The notes: a model not told the origin generated them from the letters alone. A stretch of 41,063 nucleotides of DNA from an uncultured bacterium (GCA_963934385.1 CAWVYO010000002.1:1-41063), one strand, 5' to 3'; positions 17,420 to 22,780 are shown, counted from the stretch's first letter. Numbers and translations: made by a program.

Positions 17420-18205
17420 TTGGGTTATTTAGCCACCGCTGCAATTTCTGCAATGTCAGCCACTGCTGTGGCTGCGCCTTCGGCTCCAAGTCTCTTGGGT
17501 GCTTGGCAAGAAGCGTTGCCTTTTTTGGGCGATTTGTCGTCAGTATTGGATGTCACAGAGAGTGACTGGCAAGATGTAAGCAATGGGGAGATTGTCGCAA
17601 GAAGACTGCCCCAGATATCTGGACCCGACAGAGTGTTGGGGTTGTCTTTTGTAGACGAATCTCCAAGAGCCGTCTGGATTGCCATTATTGATGATCCTCA
17701 CCTACACCTTTCAGCGGAGCTTGTAGAGCACACTATGGCGGGGTCATCTCCTGAGAGAAAGGTACTTTATCAACTGTTGAATTTGCCGTTCCCATTGTCA
17801 GATCGGTGTTGGGTAATCGAGATATCAAGCGATAATGATGTTTATGAGGGTTCTGGCGGATTGATCTGGAGGAGAGAGTGGAGGGGTGTTGAGAACGGAC
17901 CAGCATCTCTATATGGTCTACCTTTGGATCTTCAGAGAGAAGCCTTAGCGGCAGTTTACACACCAGTAAATGAAGGCTCTTGGACTCTATTGTCTATAGA
18001 TGATGGAGTTATAGTTGTGTACGAGGGGCGAGCGGATACCGCTGGAAACCTACCAACGGGTCTGGTAGACAGGTTCGCACAAGATAACGTCGAGCGGACT
18101 CTCTCACGACTTAGCGACATAGCCGCTGAGAGCGAGTCGCACTATGGCGAGGAGGGGCACTATACAATATTCAAACCGAACTACGAACCGCTGGATCGAC
18201 AATGA
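17420..18205 (+). CDS. exported START/SRPBCC-like lipid-binding domain protein
   Basis: PFPLSDRCWV and ADTAGNLPTGLVDRFAQDNVERTLSRL (compare START WPxSDRD and DPGGxIPxWLVN). Ala-rich signal-like N-terminus. Confidence 0.6.
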   Translation: MGYLATAAISAMSATAVAAPSAPSLLGAWQEALPFLGDLSSVLDVTESDWQDVSNGEIVARRLPQISGPDRVLGLSFVDESPRAVWIAIIDDPHLHLSAELVEHTMAGSSPERKVLYQLLNLPFPLSDRCWVIEISSDNDVYEGSGGLIWRREWRGVENGPASLYGLPLDLQREALAAVYTPVNEGSWTLLSIDDGVIVVYEGRADTAGNLPTGLVDRFAQDNVERTLSRLSDIAAESESHYGEEGHYTIFKPNYEPLDRQ

Positions 18206-18708
18206 CTACAGAGCGCTGGCAAGGAACAAAAGATATTATAAAGGTCTACGGGTTAGGCTTAATTGCTGTGATATTCGTCTCAATTGCGTGGGACTTTTTA
18301 CAACCAAAACCTAAACTGCCAGAGTTCGCTCCTGACTTTACTCTTGTAGATGTAAACGGTGAGGAACATCAACTATCTCAGTATCTCGGCAAAACAGTTG
18401 TTCTTAATTTTTGGGCAAGCTGGTGCGGCCCGTGTGTTTCTGAAATACCAGATTTTGCTCGTTATGCCTCTGAGCACCCCGAGGTTGTTTTGCTTGGCTT
18501 GGCTACTGAGAGGAGTGAATCCGATGCAGTCTCTACTGCTGAGCGGCTAGGTGCTGAATACCCGATCATAATGGCGGGATCTGTCTCAGATGAGTACGAC
18601 GTTTCTGTTTTACCAACAACAGTAGTCGTAAGCCCAGATGGTAGGGTCAAGCAGGTTAGCGTTGGAGCGATGTCGTACCGAGCTTTATCAGCCGCAGTAG
18701 AGCGATAG
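18202..18708 (+). CDS. TlpA/ResA-family membrane-anchored thioredoxin-like protein
   Basis: N-terminal TM, APDFTL, VLNFWASWCGPC and VLPTTVVV (cis-Pro). ATGA overlap with the previous gene. Confidence 0.9.
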   Translation: MTTERWQGTKDIIKVYGLGLIAVIFVSIAWDFLQPKPKLPEFAPDFTLVDVNGEEHQLSQYLGKTVVLNFWASWCGPCVSEIPDFARYASEHPEVVLLGLATERSESDAVSTAERLGAEYPIIMAGSVSDEYDVSVLPTTVVVSPDGRVKQVSVGAMSYRALSAAVER

Positions 18709-20580
18709 TTATTCTTCGCGCTCTTCGCAGAAATCACTAGTTCCAGCGGCGGTGATACACAAAACTCTGGCAACAGAAGTTTCTTGTCGGCTCGCAAAGG
18801 CGTAGTCGAGCCACTCACGAGCATATTGTTTTGTGTTGTTTCTCCAAAGTTCAGACACTTCGGATGTCGCCGGATCTCTATCGACAACGTATGCGGCATC
18901 GTAGTGCACCCATAGTTTGTTAGCCGTCTCTGTTTTCAATCTAAACAAGTTATAAACCCTGCTCTCATAGGTTTCTCGACGCCACTCCTGTTTGTTTTCA
19001 AGCGCGTAGTCCGCCCATCGAATAGCCTCTTCAGCACGATCCAATTCTAACTGTGAGAGGCTTAGTGCATACATGAAACAGAGGTCTGGATCCGACCGAT
19101 CTATGTCCGCTAGGTGCCTTCCCATGAGCCTCAACAATTCAACTGAGTCTTGCCTGGCATCTGCGTCAACCATGAGGACTCTGGATATGTCTTTCTTCTC
19201 GGTCTGAAGCTCAACTGTTCCTATTCTCTCCTCTAGACATTGGCGCAATTCTTCACCAAGGCGCCCCATAAGAGCGAAGGGTTCAATAGCCAGGAGATTG
19301 CTACAGCCCGGTGGTATACCAGGTGGTCTAGTTGAAGCCGTAGGAGCTGGGGCTTGCGCTACTGTGCTGTTTTCGGTAGCGGTAACGACGGGGGTGGCTT
19401 CGACGACCGCGGGCTCGGTATCCGTTTCAGCTTCAACCAACTCTGTAGATGTTGTTGGTTCAACCGCTATTGCCACAGGTGCAGGTTGGTTTCTAAGGGC
19501 GTGAAGCGCCTGTGTAGCCTCGGCCATCTCTGGTACCCATACTCCAACGGTTACCTGTGCTGTAGGTCTCTCGTATTCAGTAATGAAGTTCTCCAGCCAT
19601 TGTATTCGTAGTTCATCACTCTCAATCTCCATGGCTGCCTGGAACGCTTCAGTCCCGCGTTCTCTTATTTGTCGAACAGATTGAGCCAGTGTTCCGCCTC
19701 TATAGACTCTCTCGAAAGGTGTCCAAATATCGTCGTTTGGAGGTGTTTCTAAGTCACCGACGGACAAAATTATGCCTTTGTCATCATTTACTGACGAAAC
19801 GTGTCGTCGGGCTAACCTTGTATTTTGTTGGCGAACCCATGCCTGTGCTTCATGCAGAGTTACAGTACCGTCGGTCTCGCCACTTAGAGATCCGTCGGCC
19901 CATCCACGAATGGCTGCGGTGACCATCCAAGTGAATAGTCCTTGGTTTGCCGTCTCCCAGATCGGAGCCAGCAACATGTCTTGGTCAGCCGACCAAACAG
20001 TGAGACGATCGTTATCGGTCTGAAATGTCTCCAGTCTCGCGACAGCGCGGTCTAGAACAGGTTCTCTAGTTCTTCCTCTTCCCGAGAAGGTGGCATCCAA
20101 TACAAGGACGATATTTCCTATATTTTCGCCAGCGCCCCACTCTTCAATTTCAGCGATTGAGATACCGTCTTGATTTATCCTAGATCCGTCGGCTCGCGTG
20201 TCTTTGCCCAGCATGAACCAACCGTCTTCGTTAGCGAAACCGTGTCCTGAGAAATACACCCATAGTGTCCCACCGTCGGTGACGCGTCCCGCGGCACTTC
20301 TTACAGCCCTTCTCATCTTTGAACGGTCACCACGGCTGTTGGTGATGATGTTTCTCTCGGGAATACCCATAGTGGCCATAGCCGCGCCCTGAAAGAGTGC
20401 AGCATCGGATTCAGTTCCAAAGGCGTTTCCGACATTTACATATTCCTCTACATGCAGTATCGCTGCGGCAGAGGTTGGAGATTCTGTCCCAATGACAGGT
20501 GTTGATATGTCAGGGACATCATTAGCTTGGGCGACCCCTAAAAAAAGGAAAGACCATAACAAAGGGATCGACGAAATCAT
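18709..20580 (-). CDS. secreted caspase/peptidase C14-fold protein, probably inactive (Cys to Thr), with P/T/E linker and helical C-terminal domain
   Basis: Probable ATG at 20580 with GGAG RBS and signal ending AQA (ORF track 20673). YFSGHG, VLVLDATFSG and QGLFTW...GWADG...DGTVT. Confidence 0.75.
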   Translation of the reverse strand: MISSIPLLWSFLFLGVAQANDVPDISTPVIGTESPTSAAAILHVEEYVNVGNAFGTESDAALFQGAAMATMGIPERNIITNSRGDRSKMRRAVRSAAGRVTDGGTLWVYFSGHGFANEDGWFMLGKDTRADGSRINQDGISIAEIEEWGAGENIGNIVLVLDATFSGRGRTREPVLDRAVARLETFQTDNDRLTVWSADQDMLLAPIWETANQGLFTWMVTAAIRGWADGSLSGETDGTVTLHEAQAWVRQQNTRLARRHVSSVNDDKGIILSVGDLETPPNDDIWTPFERVYRGGTLAQSVRQIRERGTEAFQAAMEIESDELRIQWLENFITEYERPTAQVTVGVWVPEMAEATQALHALRNQPAPVAIAVEPTTSTELVEAETDTEPAVVEATPVVTATENSTVAQAPAPTASTRPPGIPPGCSNLLAIEPFALMGRLGEELRQCLEERIGTVELQTEKKDISRVLMVDADARQDSVELLRLMGRHLADIDRSDPDLCFMYALSLSQLELDRAEEAIRWADYALENKQEWRRETYESRVYNLFRLKTETANKLWVHYDAAYVVDRDPATSEVSELWRNNTKQYAREWLDYAFASRQETSVARVLCITAAGTSDFCEEREE

Positions 20581-20785
20581 TGTTGCACTCCAGTGCCATG
20601 CAGAGTTGATTTCGGATGTTGCCATGATCAACAGCAAGATCGCAAGGTTGCTTTTTTCAATAGATTTATCCATTGGCTACACTCCGTCGCAAAACCAGAT
20701 ACAATAATCAGGCAAAACACCGAATGTGGGTCTGCATCATAAAAGACTCACCAGCGCGCGAAATACATATGAACAGGAAAAACTA

Positions 20786-22780
20786 ATGCGAATCAGCACA
20801 ATTTTTACGGCCGTCATCATGCTTGTTGCATGTGGTAAAGGCGATGACACTGGCGTGACCAGTCACACTGGTGAGACTGGTCACACCGGTCAGACAACTC
20901 ACACCGGAGAGACGGGCACTACTTCAGTTAACGATGTAGAGCTCCTTGAAATAGTGAACCCAAGTGATTCTGAAATCATAGTCCCAGCGACAAGCTTAGA
21001 GCTTACGGCTGACTTGACTGGAGTATTTGACCCCGAAGGGTTGGTGGCGACCGTCGAAGTAAACGGCGAAGCAGTAAATTTTGACATAGATAGCAGCGGC
21101 ATTGTGGCTAATATTACATGTGAATATGGTCAAAACACGGCAGAGATGTCAGTGCAAGATGACGAAGCGCTTCATACAGACTCTGTGATGTGGATCGGAA
21201 ATACGGCGCCGGTCGTATCTTTGGATCCTACCCCAGTAACGTTGGTTCAGGGAGATTCGGTGACCATAACGGGCATTGTTTTTGACGCTGATACGCCTGA
21301 GGATCTCTTGTTGACGTGGATGTTGGATGGCGAGGTCTATCTTACCGAGATGGCGCCAGTTGATGGTTCAGTCTCACTCTATTTTGAAGAGGCGCCAGGT
21401 GGTGCACATACAATTGAGTTGATCGCCGAAGACGAGTGGGAGTCAACGAGTGACGAAGTTGCGTTTGATGTAGCTTGTGCAGTCACTGATAACGTTCAAA
21501 TGTTGCTACATATGGATGATGGATCAGGTGTGGCTATCGCTGACTCTAGTTATGAGCCTAGCGAGGTATCCCTGATGGGTAGCCCCCTTTGGATTGACGG
21601 GATGGACGGCAAAGGAGTTGATCTTGGAGGTAACAGTTACTTGGCGGCGCTCGATCCAGAGTACCCTGACCTATGGACCATGGACTTCACATTTTCAGCG
21701 TGGCTAAAGCCGGATTCTGAGGTTCCAAATGGCAACGAAGCTATCTTCCAGCAGCTTGACGGACAGGGAGTTGGTCGTACGCTTCTCTACCGCTCTACAA
21801 GCTGTGGAAACGCTCTCACATCGTACTTGGGTGGCGCTACTCTGTGTGGGACTACGCCGCTGAATGCTGGTCAATGGAACCATGTAGTGCTGACGAGAAA
21901 CCGCACGACAGGAAAGATAGCAATCTACTTAAATGGTGTGCTCGAAGGCGAGGCTGACAGGTTTATGGAGCTAGCAGATGGGGGTTACCTGTTTGGTGTA
22001 GGAAAAACAGCATCTAGCCAGTACTTTGACGGAGCGATAGACGAGGTCGCGATCATGAGTGTCACATTAGACGAGGCAGATGTTCAGGCTCTATACGCCA
22101 CGGGCTTGCCGACGTGTGATCCAGGTTGTTTAGAGTTGCCAGAGACACCGTATACTTGGTTTGATGGTTCGGTAGACGGAAACGGCGATTTGTTGGATCA
22201 CGGTCAGAGTCAGTCTGTTCAGGTACAGGGTGGTTTTACTATAGGTGACGGGACTTCAGGCGATGCCGTACATCTAGATGGCTCAACTGGTTACTTTGAG
22301 CTAGCAGGTGCTGACTCGTACTCCGTATCAACAGGTGACTTTACCGTATCTCTTCGGGCAAGGTTTGATGGTTCGAGCTTTGTTGGCGAGGACCGCACCT
22401 TGGTTCAGATTTTAGACGGTACAGGCTTAGGTCGTACCCTTCTTTATGTAGATGATACCTGTGGAGGACAGATCTCTTCATTCATTGGTGGGCAAGAGTT
22501 TTGCAGTGGTACTCTTACAGCCGGTCTTTGGCACCATGTGGCAATTACCCACACTCAGTCGGACGATATGACTCAGATCTACATAGATGGTATCGGCAAG
22601 CCAATAGCACCTAGGGCAATGGCCGCATCAGATGGCGGCTTGAGGTTTGGTACTGGCAAGACCTTCAATGGGCAATGGTGGGACGGACCTATCGATGACA
22701 TTCTAATATTCGATAGGGTACTTACCGATCTCGAAATGGAAGATCTGCACTCCGATGGCACAGGATATTGCCCTCTTTAA
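20786..22780 (+). CDS. lipoprotein with Ig-like modules and two LamG/concanavalin A-like domains
   Basis: ATG at 20786, LVAC lipobox. Two repeats of FTxSxW/R...DGxGxGRTLLY..C...C...GxW(N/H)HVxxT...IYx(N/D)G...(F/W)DGxIDE/D. Confidence 0.8.
   Translation: MRISTIFTAVIMLVACGKGDDTGVTSHTGETGHTGQTTHTGETGTTSVNDVELLEIVNPSDSEIIVPATSLELTADLTGVFDPEGLVATVEVNGEAVNFDIDSSGIVANITCEYGQNTAEMSVQDDEALHTDSVMWIGNTAPVVSLDPTPVTLVQGDSVTITGIVFDADTPEDLLLTWMLDGEVYLTEMAPVDGSVSLYFEEAPGGAHTIELIAEDEWESTSDEVAFDVACAVTDNVQMLLHMDDGSGVAIADSSYEPSEVSLMGSPLWIDGMDGKGVDLGGNSYLAALDPEYPDLWTMDFTFSAWLKPDSEVPNGNEAIFQQLDGQGVGRTLLYRSTSCGNALTSYLGGATLCGTTPLNAGQWNHVVLTRNRTTGKIAIYLNGVLEGEADRFMELADGGYLFGVGKTASSQYFDGAIDEVAIMSVTLDEADVQALYATGLPTCDPGCLELPETPYTWFDGSVDGNGDLLDHGQSQSVQVQGGFTIGDGTSGDAVHLDGSTGYFELAGADSYSVSTGDFTVSLRARFDGSSFVGEDRTLVQILDGTGLGRTLLYVDDTCGGQISSFIGGQEFCSGTLTAGLWHHVAITHTQSDDMTQIYIDGIGKPIAPRAMAASDGGLRFGTGKTFNGQWWDGPIDDILIFDRVLTDLEMEDLHSDGTGYCPL
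20864..20917 (+). repeat. 3 x 18-bp coding repeat (HTGETG HTGQTT HTGETG)
   Basis: cacactggtgagactggt / cacaccggtcagacaact / cacaccggagagacgggc. Confidence 0.8.

What the first reader, a model, noticed from the sequence alone, without database searches (positions are those of the whole stretch)
20089..20244. Secreted pseudo-caspase: His kept, catalytic Cys replaced by Thr
Seen: FSGHG with His at 20242..20244 and LDATFSG, where the canonical DACxSG Cys codon is ACC (20089..20091). That is two base changes from TGC, so a single-base sequencing error is unlikely. The ORF is intact and has a Sec signal. Established: the C14 fold needs a His-Cys dyad, and inactive orthocaspase variants are described mainly in cyanobacteria. 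Inference: an exported, non-proteolytic caspase scaffold acting as a binding or receptor module.
Basis: partly seen in the sequence, partly recalled or inferred. Interest (0 to 1): 0.65.

Follow-up and report, generated by a model that had tools for sequence, protein, structure and literature searches.

The report
Exported dead caspase-like protein family
This gene encodes an exported protein whose caspase-like domain lost its catalytic cysteine long ago, and nearly every member of an uncultured myxobacterial order keeps it under purifying selection, so it is a conserved pseudo-protease, a kind already known from other bacteria.

Summary
On the minus strand, CAC (20244..20242) encodes the His of FSGHG and ACC (20091..20089) encodes the Thr of LDATFSG. 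That Thr sits in the column of the catalytic Cys, which aligns to MALT1 Cys464.

- **Fold:** the domain has a caspase fold. Foldseek top hits are CED-3, caspase-11, MALT1 and metacaspases.
- **Not an error:** the same ACC codon occurs in three independent assemblies. dN/dS of the domain is about 0.10.
- **Loss of Cys:** all 55 species-level genomes and all 38 cluster representatives with this two-domain architecture lack Cys. They carry G, S, D, A, P, T, N, V or R instead. Sister domains with other partners keep His and Cys in 28 of 31 and 45 of 55 cases. The tree needs one change of Cys state. Thr itself is not conserved, so an alternative nucleophile is unlikely.
- **Pocket:** the two S1 Asp residues (D90, D193) stay invariant.
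- **Start and export:** the true start is M32, which gives a Sec signal peptide (AQA|ND).
- **C-terminal domain:** a flexible linker leads to a 200-residue helical domain with four invariant Cys. It has no Pfam or PDB match. It also forms the extracytoplasmic end of Ser/Thr kinases and occurs in a paralogue in this genome.
- **Distribution:** at least one of the two domains is found in 118 of 121 genomes of the order; about two thirds of those genomes have a full-length two-domain match.

Verdict: a new, order-wide clade of the known pseudo-orthocaspase kind. Its binding role is inferred, not shown.

The parts
18709..20580 (-). Gene as corrected: start M32 (ATG 20580..20578), stop TAA 18711..18709, 623-aa precursor. 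The mechanical ORF runs up to 20673.
   Evidence: A relative (L086) has an in-frame stop in the upstream extension, GGAG lies 7 nt before the M32 ATG, and the codon-position pattern of differences fits non-coding sequence upstream.
20524..20580 (-). Sec-type signal peptide MISSIPLLWSFLFLGVAQA, with predicted cleavage AQA|ND.
   Evidence: Nearly all family members have a hydrophobic N-terminus ending in AxA just before the conserved PPD(V/I)D.P motif. No SignalP was available, so the cleavage site is inferred.
19738..20523 (-). Caspase-fold (C14-like) pseudo-protease domain, ORF residues 51-312. It contains no Cys at all.
   Evidence: AF2 model; Foldseek hits to CED-3, caspase-11, MALT1 and metacaspases; profile hits to Yca1, AtMC4 and MALT1; NCBIfam NF047832 E 3.6e-13; dN/dS 0.097.
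20242..20244 (-). His144 codon CAC (FSGHG), the retained half of the catalytic dyad.
   Evidence: It aligns with the catalytic His of Yca1, AtMC4 and MALT1. His is kept in 43 of 55 genome orthologues.
20089..20091 (-). Thr195 codon ACC, in the column of the catalytic Cys.
   Evidence: It aligns with MALT1 Cys464. The same ACC codon occurs in L085 and L086. The column never holds Cys in 55 of 55 and 38 of 38 two-domain proteins.
20095..20097 (-). Asp193 (Cys-2 position), equivalent to S1-pocket Asp211 of TbMCA2. Invariant.
   Evidence: Invariant column D144 of alignment A4. The role of this residue is taken from PMC6426788 section 17.
20404..20406 (-). Asp90, equivalent to S1-pocket Asp95 of TbMCA2 (the D of CINDA in Yca1). 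Invariant.
   Evidence: Invariant column D41 of A4; alignment to Yca1; role taken.
19492..19734 (-). Helical hairpin following the caspase-like domain (residues 314-394).
   Evidence: AF2 helices 314-349, 353-367 and 381-394. The region is also conserved in FGE-sulfatase-fused relatives.
19321..19485 (-). Disordered Pro/Thr/Glu/Ala-rich linker (residues 397-451).
   Evidence: pLDDT below 50. It has the highest dN/dS of the gene (0.16) and variable length.
18712..19320 (-). C-terminal helical domain of about 200 residues. Invariant Cys at 457, 479, 639 and 649. Motifs RHL, DRSDPDLCF, YALENKQEW and EWLDYA. No family is assigned.
   Evidence: AF2 pLDDT 95.1 with 9 helices. No Pfam hit and no PDB sequence hit. 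Only weak TPR-like fold matches, E at least 0.03. The domain is also found in a paralogue on contig C38 and outside the membrane in Ser/Thr kinases.

Best explanation
The gene encodes an exported (periplasmic or envelope) protein built as signal peptide, caspase-fold domain, helical hairpin, flexible linker and a Cys-containing TPR-like helical domain. The caspase-fold domain is a pseudo-protease. The catalytic Cys was lost once, at the origin of this two-domain architecture, and the position has drifted freely since. Other active-site elements have decayed with it. The fold and the two acidic S1-pocket residues have been kept under strong purifying selection. The most likely mode of action is non-catalytic. 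The dead caspase head keeps a pocket able to hold a basic (Arg/Lys) side chain of a protein or peptide without cutting it. The C-terminal domain, a module reused on membrane Ser/Thr kinases and on a second secreted paralogue, docks the protein to a common envelope partner or ligand. Shown here: the fold, the loss of the nucleophile, selection, export signals, modularity and order-wide conservation. Inferred: binding of basic residues, the docking role of the C-terminal domain, and disulfides between the invariant Cys.
For: The fold and the positional homology of His144 and Thr195 come. Cys is absent in 38 of 38 cluster representatives and 55 of 55 species genomes with the two-domain architecture, replaced by G, S, D, A, P, T, N, V or R. 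Sister domains with other partners (TPR, FGE-sulfatase, Lcl_C) keep Cys in 45 of 55 and 28 of 31 cases. In the tree, the two-domain rows lie on one side of a branch (SH-aLRT 90) and the Cys state needs one change. Active-site-associated positions are relaxed only in the pseudo clade: the Gly at residue 198, three positions after the Cys column, is kept in 58%, and the G-x-R-x3-P loop in 31, 13 and 47%. ORF residues 32-456 contain no Cys at all. D90 and D193 are invariant. dN/dS is 0.097 for the caspase domain and 0.114 for the C-terminal domain, and the ACC codon is identical in three assemblies. Signal peptides run through the whole family. The C-terminal domain follows a TM helix in the kinases P0127 and P0117. 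At least one of the two domains is found in 118 of 121 genomes of the order, and about two thirds of those genomes have a full-length two-domain match. There is no defence-system match.
Against: No experiment or ligand is known. The binding role rests on two conserved Asp residues and on analogy with cyanobacterial pseudo-orthocaspases. His is still kept in about 78% of genome orthologues, which is unexplained if the site has no chemistry. No conserved gene neighbour points to a partner. The resemblance of the C-terminal domain to TPR proteins is weak (E at least 0.03, TM at most 0.5), and its strongly conserved polar motifs (RH, DRSDPD, ENKQ) could instead mark an enzymatic or small-molecule site. 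The signal-peptide cleavage site and the disulfides are not tested.
Confidence: 0.7

Rival explanations
1. The protein is a regulator or decoy of active caspase-like proteases, like c-FLIP towards caspase-8. The dead domain heterodimerises with, or competes for substrates of, an intact-dyad paralogue in the envelope.
For: The same genome encodes one exported, intact-dyad C14 protein on contig C64 (LSGHG / MDTCHNG; Pfam 44 bits). Several related genomes carry both the pseudo form and active members of the same subfamily (record list). Pseudo-caspases that regulate active ones are established in animals (general knowledge).
Against: This genome and its closest small-genome relative have no active paralogue of the same subfamily. 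The C64-type protease is found in only 38 of 61 genomes of the order, against 118 of 121 for the family profile, although those 118 also include genomes that match through a single domain only. No linkage between the two genes was seen.
Confidence: 0.13
2. The function lies in the C-terminal domain, acting as sensor, enzyme or anchor. The dead caspase domain is only a conserved structural head or spacer with no ligand pocket of its own.
For: The C-terminal domain is the best conserved part of the protein. It occurs alone behind other heads (74 representatives, 50 of them with a CQDGWAGC head) and on kinases. It has expanded to 10-13 copies per genome in one family of the order. Its invariant polar motifs suggest a site.
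Against: The caspase-like domain is under equally strong purifying selection (dN/dS 0.097 against 0.114). It keeps its pocket Asp residues and about 20 invariant residues across sequences about 30% identical, which is more than a spacer needs.
Confidence: 0.12
3. The protein is still a hydrolase that uses Thr or Ser with His144 as an alternative nucleophile pair.
For: His is retained here, and Thr or Ser occupies the Cys column in this lineage and in about a third of the family.
Against: The commonest residue in that column is Gly, and Asp, Ala, Pro, Asn, Val and Arg also occur. His is replaced by Tyr, Gln, Ala or Glu in many members. The glycine three positions after the Cys column (residue 198) and the post-Cys loop motif have also decayed.
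Confidence: 0.04
4. The Thr is an artefact or the gene is decaying: a sequencing or assembly error, or a pseudogene.
For: Raw reads could not be inspected.
Against: The identical ACC codon is present in three independent assemblies, the frame is intact, and dN/dS is about 0.1. The gene is conserved across the order.
Confidence: 0.01

Closest known systems
Bacterial pseudo-orthocaspases (Klemencic et al. 2019, PMC6426788), for example SyOC of Synechocystis (PMC7889975)
   Same: A prokaryotic caspase homologue with a substituted His-Cys dyad. The fold and the two acidic S1-pocket Asp residues are conserved, and clade-specific C-terminal domains are present. Presumed non-proteolytic.
   Different: The described ones are about 90% from Alphaproteobacteria and Cyanobacteria, typically with fixed substitutions such as Tyr-Ser or Tyr-Asn. 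This clade is from Myxococcota. His is mostly kept and the Cys column is hypervariable. The protein carries a Sec signal and is fused to an unclassified helical domain shared with Ser/Thr kinases. It falls below the Pfam C14 threshold, so surveys based on that model would probably miss it.
Active caspase-like proteins of the same subfamily in Myxococcota (fused to TPR arrays, FGE-sulfatase or Lcl_C domains)
   Same: About 30% identity and shared motifs (GTLWVYF.GHG, HG.FT, GALRGWADG, DG.VTL.EA). The N-terminal signal peptide and the helical hairpin are also shared.
   Different: They keep the Cys, the glycine three positions after it, and a G-x-R-x3-P loop. They lack the C-terminal domain found here.
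Metacaspases and paracaspase (Yca1, AtMC4, MALT1) and caspases (CED-3, caspase-11)
   Same: The same alpha/beta fold. The His motif and the Asp-x-Cys strand align.
   Different: No catalytic Cys. Sequence identity is only 10-15%. The protein is exported and belongs to a bacterial envelope setting.
NCBIfam NF047832, caspase of the EACC1-associated type
   Same: The best-scoring curated model for residues 100-281 (E 3.6e-13).
   Different: The score of 49.5 is far below the cutoff of 140. No EACC1 domain is present, there is no conflict-system context, and PADLOC gives no hit.

Membership tests
Peptidase C14 / caspase fold (clan CD) | Caspase-type alpha/beta fold | tested here: met
   Foldseek of the AF2 model: CED-3 E 5.8e-6, caspase-11, MALT1, metacaspases and GSU0716, with TM on target 0.5-0.65.
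Peptidase C14 / caspase fold (clan CD) | Score above the Pfam PF00656 gathering threshold | tested here: not met
   15.7 bits against 21.4, E 0.012. Some orthologues and the active sister proteins do pass.
Peptidase C14 / caspase fold (clan CD) | Catalytic His | tested here: met
   H144 aligns with the catalytic His of Yca1, AtMC4 and MALT1.
Peptidase C14 / caspase fold (clan CD) | Catalytic Cys | tested here: not met
   T195 lies in the column of MALT1 Cys464. No Cys occurs anywhere in residues 32-456. The protein therefore has the fold but is not an active C14 peptidase.
Pseudo-orthocaspase (sense of PMC6426788) | Prokaryotic p20-type caspase homologue with at least one dyad residue substituted | tested here: met
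   definition taken.
Pseudo-orthocaspase (sense of PMC6426788) | Acidic S1-pocket residues retained (equivalents of TbMCA2 Asp95 and Asp211) | tested here: met
   D90 and D193 are invariant in alignment A4. Equivalence follows from the Yca1 alignment and the Cys-2 position.
Pseudo-orthocaspase (sense of PMC6426788) | Absence of a p10 domain | tested here: inconclusive
   Structural alignments span 260-290 columns of whole caspases, and the model has strands after the Cys strand. No separate p10 test was made.
Pseudo-orthocaspase (sense of PMC6426788) | Lack of proteolytic activity | not testable with these tools
   This needs an enzyme assay.
NCBIfam NF047832 caspase_w_EACC1 | Score above the curated cutoff | tested here: not met
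   49.5 bits against 140.
TPR-like helical repeat (C-terminal domain) | Significant sequence or structural match to TPR families | tested here: inconclusive
   No Pfam TPR hit in 39 members. The best Foldseek hits are TPR proteins but only at E 0.03-0.3 and TM 0.3-0.5.

The most novel reading that the evidence does not exclude
The C-terminal helical domain is an undescribed extracytoplasmic sensor or docking domain of this myxobacterial order, shared by membrane Ser/Thr kinases, a small secreted paralogue and this protein. The dead caspase head would act as a periplasmic co-receptor. It would capture Arg/Lys-bearing peptides or protein termini and bring them, through C-terminal domain contacts, to kinase signalling. 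A protease would thus have been repurposed as the ligand-binding arm of a signalling system.
Probability: 0.1. Interest if true: 0.7.

Novelty: new variant of a known kind. Interest (0 to 1): 0.4.

Why it matters
Pseudo-proteases are a recognised but poorly understood class. For bacterial caspase homologues, only cyanobacterial and alphaproteobacterial examples have been surveyed, and a single knock-out has been studied. This is a monophyletic clade whose nucleophile loss is ancient. It is under dN/dS of about 0.1 and is widespread in a whole order of Myxococcota, so a non-catalytic function evidently matters to these cells. It shows cleanly that the pocket was kept while the chemistry decayed. 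It also exposes an unclassified, highly conserved envelope domain reused on Ser/Thr kinases. The practical value is limited because the organisms are uncultured and no partner is known.

Tried and rejected
- **Raw reads and transcripts:** I used independent assemblies instead.
- **PDB sequence searches:** the full-length profile gave only chance-level cytochrome b562 hits. The C-terminal profile gave nothing.
- **Family searches for the C-terminal domain:** Pfam and NCBIfam gave no family. The Foldseek search gave no hit below E 0.03.
- **Defence-system reading:** rejected. PADLOC finds nothing and the gene is a vertically inherited core gene.
- **Conserved operon partner:** clustering of flanking ORFs in 57 loci found nothing universal. 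A MiaB-like gene lies downstream in 16-18 loci. The divergent LamG-Yip1-HDOD-MBL-SNase block and the convergent TlpA-like gene appear only in close kin.
- **M1 as the start codon:** rejected.
- **Promoter and terminator scan:** nothing above the shuffled background.
- **Earlier findings searched by sequence:** none.
- **Literature on orthocaspases in Myxococcus:** nothing relevant.

Full report
**1. Observation**

The window's minus strand carries an intact ORF, 18709..20673, of 654 aa. Reading the strand directly confirms both claims. CAC at 20244..20242 is the His of WVYFSGHG (residue 144). ACC at 20091..20089 is the Thr of VLVLDATFSG (residue 195). ACC is two base changes from TGC.

Pfam's Peptidase_C14 matches only weakly (15.7 bits, below the 21.4 cutoff). 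NCBIfam's nearest caspase model gives E 3.6e-13 but scores far below its cutoff. The family assignment therefore needed independent support.

**2. The domain is caspase-fold, and Thr195 is in the catalytic Cys column**

An AlphaFold2 model built on 13 orthologues shows five parts:
- an alpha/beta domain at about residues 60-310;
- a helical hairpin at 314-394;
- a disordered linker at 397-451;
- a confident helical domain at 452-654;
- mean pLDDT 73.8 over the whole chain.

Foldseek against the PDB returns CED-3, caspase-11, MALT1, plant and yeast metacaspases and GSU0716 as top hits (E 6e-6 to 1e-3, TM on target 0.5-0.65).

A profile of 39 N-terminal domains (A4) hits Yca1 (E 5.5e-4), AtMC4 (1e-3) and MALT1 (0.02). 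FaGhG aligns on their catalytic His motif. lDaCfsg aligns on LDMCRKR of MALT1, which holds the catalytic Cys464.

**3. Not an error and not decay**

The same ACC codon occurs in two other independent assemblies: L085, whose product is 92% identical, and L086, at 74%. A 43% relative has GCG (Ala) there and also TAC (Tyr) in place of His.

Nei-Gojobori dN/dS against L085:

| Region | dN/dS |
|---|---|
| Caspase-like domain | 0.097 |
| C-terminal domain | 0.114 |
| Linker | 0.16 |

**4. The loss of Cys is a family trait tied to one architecture**

A word-index search found 12 full-length homologues. A profile search of 1.84 billion representatives found 913 proteins at E below 1e-30. A scan of GTDB species genomes gave 80 loci. 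The table counts residues in the two dyad columns.

| Data set | Two-domain architecture | Same subfamily, other partners |
|---|---|---|
| Cluster representatives, Cys column | 0 of 38 have Cys (G 12, S 11, A 5, T 3, N 2, D 2, V, P, R) | 45 of 55 have Cys |
| Cluster representatives, His column | 25 of 38 have His | 54 of 55 have His |
| Species genomes | 0 of 55 have Cys (G 25, S 18, D 5, A 4, P 3); 43 of 55 have His | 28 of 31 have both His and Cys |

The other partners of the active sister domains are TPR arrays, FGE-sulfatase and Lcl_C domains.

I built a maximum-likelihood tree of the domain with the two dyad columns removed. It puts the two-domain rows on one side of a branch (SH-aLRT 90) and needs a single change of Cys state.

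Several positions are at least 90% conserved in the active sisters but relaxed in the pseudo clade:
- the Gly of the first strand;
- the Cys itself;
- the Gly at residue 198, three positions after the Cys column (58% kept);
- a G-x-R-x3-P loop after the Cys strand (31, 13 and 47% kept).

ORF residues 32-456 contain no Cys at all, so no other Cys can substitute.

Thr is therefore a lineage-specific filler and not a conserved alternative nucleophile. What is conserved is the absence of a nucleophile.

**5. What stays conserved**

The structural core motifs are shared with the active sisters: GTLWVYF.GHG, F196, R201, HG.FT, GALRGWADG and DG.VTL.EAQ.

Two Asp residues are invariant in all 39 pseudo and active sequences. 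D90 aligns with the D of CINDA in Yca1. D193 sits two residues before the Cys column. These correspond to Asp95 and Asp211 of TbMCA2, which hold the basic P1 residue. The published survey reports the same retention for cyanobacterial pseudo-orthocaspases (PMC6426788). This is the basis, by inference only, for proposing that the head still binds Arg/Lys side chains.

**6. Export and the true start**

The listed ORF begins at M1, but three lines of evidence favour M32:
- L086 has an in-frame stop inside the 31-codon extension.
- Differences to L085 in codons 1-31 fall 3/0/0 by codon position, against 2/1/13 in codons 32-130.
- GGAG lies 7 nt before the M32 ATG (20580..20578).

The precursor then starts MISSIPLLWSFLFLGVAQA|NDVPD. 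Almost every family member starts with a hydrophobic segment ending in AxA just before the conserved PPD(V/I)D.P motif. Many are textbook signal peptides, for example MRRLLALLLLVACGRAQA.

**7. The C-terminal domain**

Modelled alone on 39 sequences, it gives pLDDT 95.1 with nine helices. It has four invariant Cys (457, 479, 639, 649) and strongly conserved polar motifs (RHL, DRSDPDLCF, YALENKQEW, EWLDYA).

It matches no Pfam or NCBIfam family and no PDB sequence. Structurally it shows only weak likeness to TPR-type solenoids such as the KLC1 TPR domain, EMC2, MamA and BamD (E at least 0.03, TM at most 0.5).

It is a reusable module:
- Among the 168 proteins examined, 74 proteins carry it without the caspase head.
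- Fifty of these share a small Cys-containing head (LPCQDGWAGC...MR.GWFDL) and a Pro-rich linker.
- One such paralogue lies in this genome on contig C38.
- In P0127 the order is Ser/Thr kinase (residues 7-268), one TM helix (435-453), a low-complexity linker, then this domain (604-800). P0117 is alike.

That topology, the conserved Cys and the signal peptides together place the domain outside the cytoplasm.

**8. Distribution and context**

Related contigs are from uncultured Myxococcota or 'Deltaproteobacteria' MAGs, mostly aquatic. Some records bear implausible names such as Enterobacterales or Klebsiella.

In the window's own order, the family profile matches 118 of 121 genomes and 60 of 61 good-quality ones. 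About two thirds of these have a full-length two-domain match; families f3 and f6 mostly match through one domain or as split hits. The typical pattern is one full-length copy plus one copy with the C-terminal domain only. One family with complete genomes has 10-13 copies of the C-terminal domain but no fusion to the pseudo-caspase.

No gene neighbour is conserved across the clade. The divergent LamG-Yip1-HDOD-MBL-SNase block and the convergent TlpA-like redoxin recur only in close kin. A 32% relative has different neighbours. PADLOC finds nothing. This looks like a vertically inherited envelope gene and not a conflict system.

**9. Mechanism and rivals**

The best reading (about 0.7) is an exported non-catalytic protein. 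Its dead caspase head keeps a pocket for basic side chains. Its C-terminal module docks to a common envelope partner or ligand.

A c-FLIP-like regulator of active paralogues is possible but weakly supported. The genome has one intact-dyad, exported C14 protein on C64. It belongs to another subfamily and occurs in only 38 of 61 genomes of the order.

A residual Thr/Ser-His hydrolase is unlikely, given Gly, Asp and Pro in the Cys column and the partial loss of His. Sequencing error or pseudogene is excluded.

**10. Comparison and novelty**

Pseudo-orthocaspases are a described kind. They make up 8.6% of bacterial caspase homologues, and 90% of them come from Alphaproteobacteria and Cyanobacteria (PMC6426788). 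One has been studied by knock-out (PMC7889975).

This protein meets that definition but differs in several respects:
- It forms a separate, monophyletic clade in Myxococcota.
- His is mostly kept, and the Cys column is hypervariable.
- It carries a Sec signal.
- It is fused to an unclassified domain shared with Ser/Thr kinases.
- It scores below the Pfam C14 threshold, so Pfam-based surveys would largely miss it.

I rate it a new variant of a known kind, with interest about 0.4.

Noticed in passing
window 20581-20673 (-): The first 31 codons of the mechanical ORF are probably not coding. A relative has an in-frame stop there, and the substitutions do not follow a codon pattern. The divergent intergenic region towards the LamG lipoprotein gene (whose likely start is at 20786) is then about 205 bp instead of 52 bp.
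   Followed up: yes
G000 contig C38:9362-10672 (+), locus L002:1006-2250: A paralogue carries only the C-terminal domain. It has a signal peptide, a small Cys-containing head (PCMDGWAGC...MRIGWFDL), a TonB-like (EPVRV)n and poly-Pro linker, then the domain. It is translationally coupled to two lipoprotein-like ORFs that have no Pfam family. The same head recurs in 50 of 60 representatives that carry the C-terminal domain alone.
   Followed up: partly
G000 contig C64:3097-4716 (+): The only intact-dyad Peptidase_C14 protein of the genome (LSGHG / MDTCHNG, 44 bits). It has a signal peptide and a beta-rich C-terminal half ending ...DIGVGF, which resembles an outer-membrane-protein terminus. It is present in 38 of 61 genomes of the order.
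   Followed up: partly
P0127, P0117; genomes G059, G069, G094: The unclassified C-terminal domain forms the extracytoplasmic end of membrane Ser/Thr kinases. It has expanded to 10-13 copies per genome in one family of the order that includes complete genomes.
   Followed up: partly
Loci L059-L084 (active sister proteins): Active relatives share a G-x-R-x3-P loop just after the Cys strand (93-100% conserved) that is lost in the pseudo clade. It could be an autoprocessing site after Arg.
   Followed up: no
L032:4566-6455: One two-domain orthologue reads LDCAFGR, with a Cys one position upstream of the canonical D-x-C column. It could be coincidence or a shifted nucleophile.
   Followed up: no
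Record titles of L006-L009, L017, L048, L054, L056 and others: Public MAG records named 'uncultured Enterobacterales' or 'Klebsiella pneumoniae' carry this myxobacterial gene and cluster with Myxococcota MAGs. Their taxon labels look wrong.
   Followed up: no
window 17420-18708 (+): An operon with an unknown 261-aa protein and a TlpA-like thiol-disulfide oxidoreductase (WCGPC) ends exactly where the pseudo-caspase gene ends (18708/18709, convergent). In close relatives a cytochrome c gene precedes it. Its nearness to a Cys-bearing exported protein may or may not be meaningful.
   Followed up: partly
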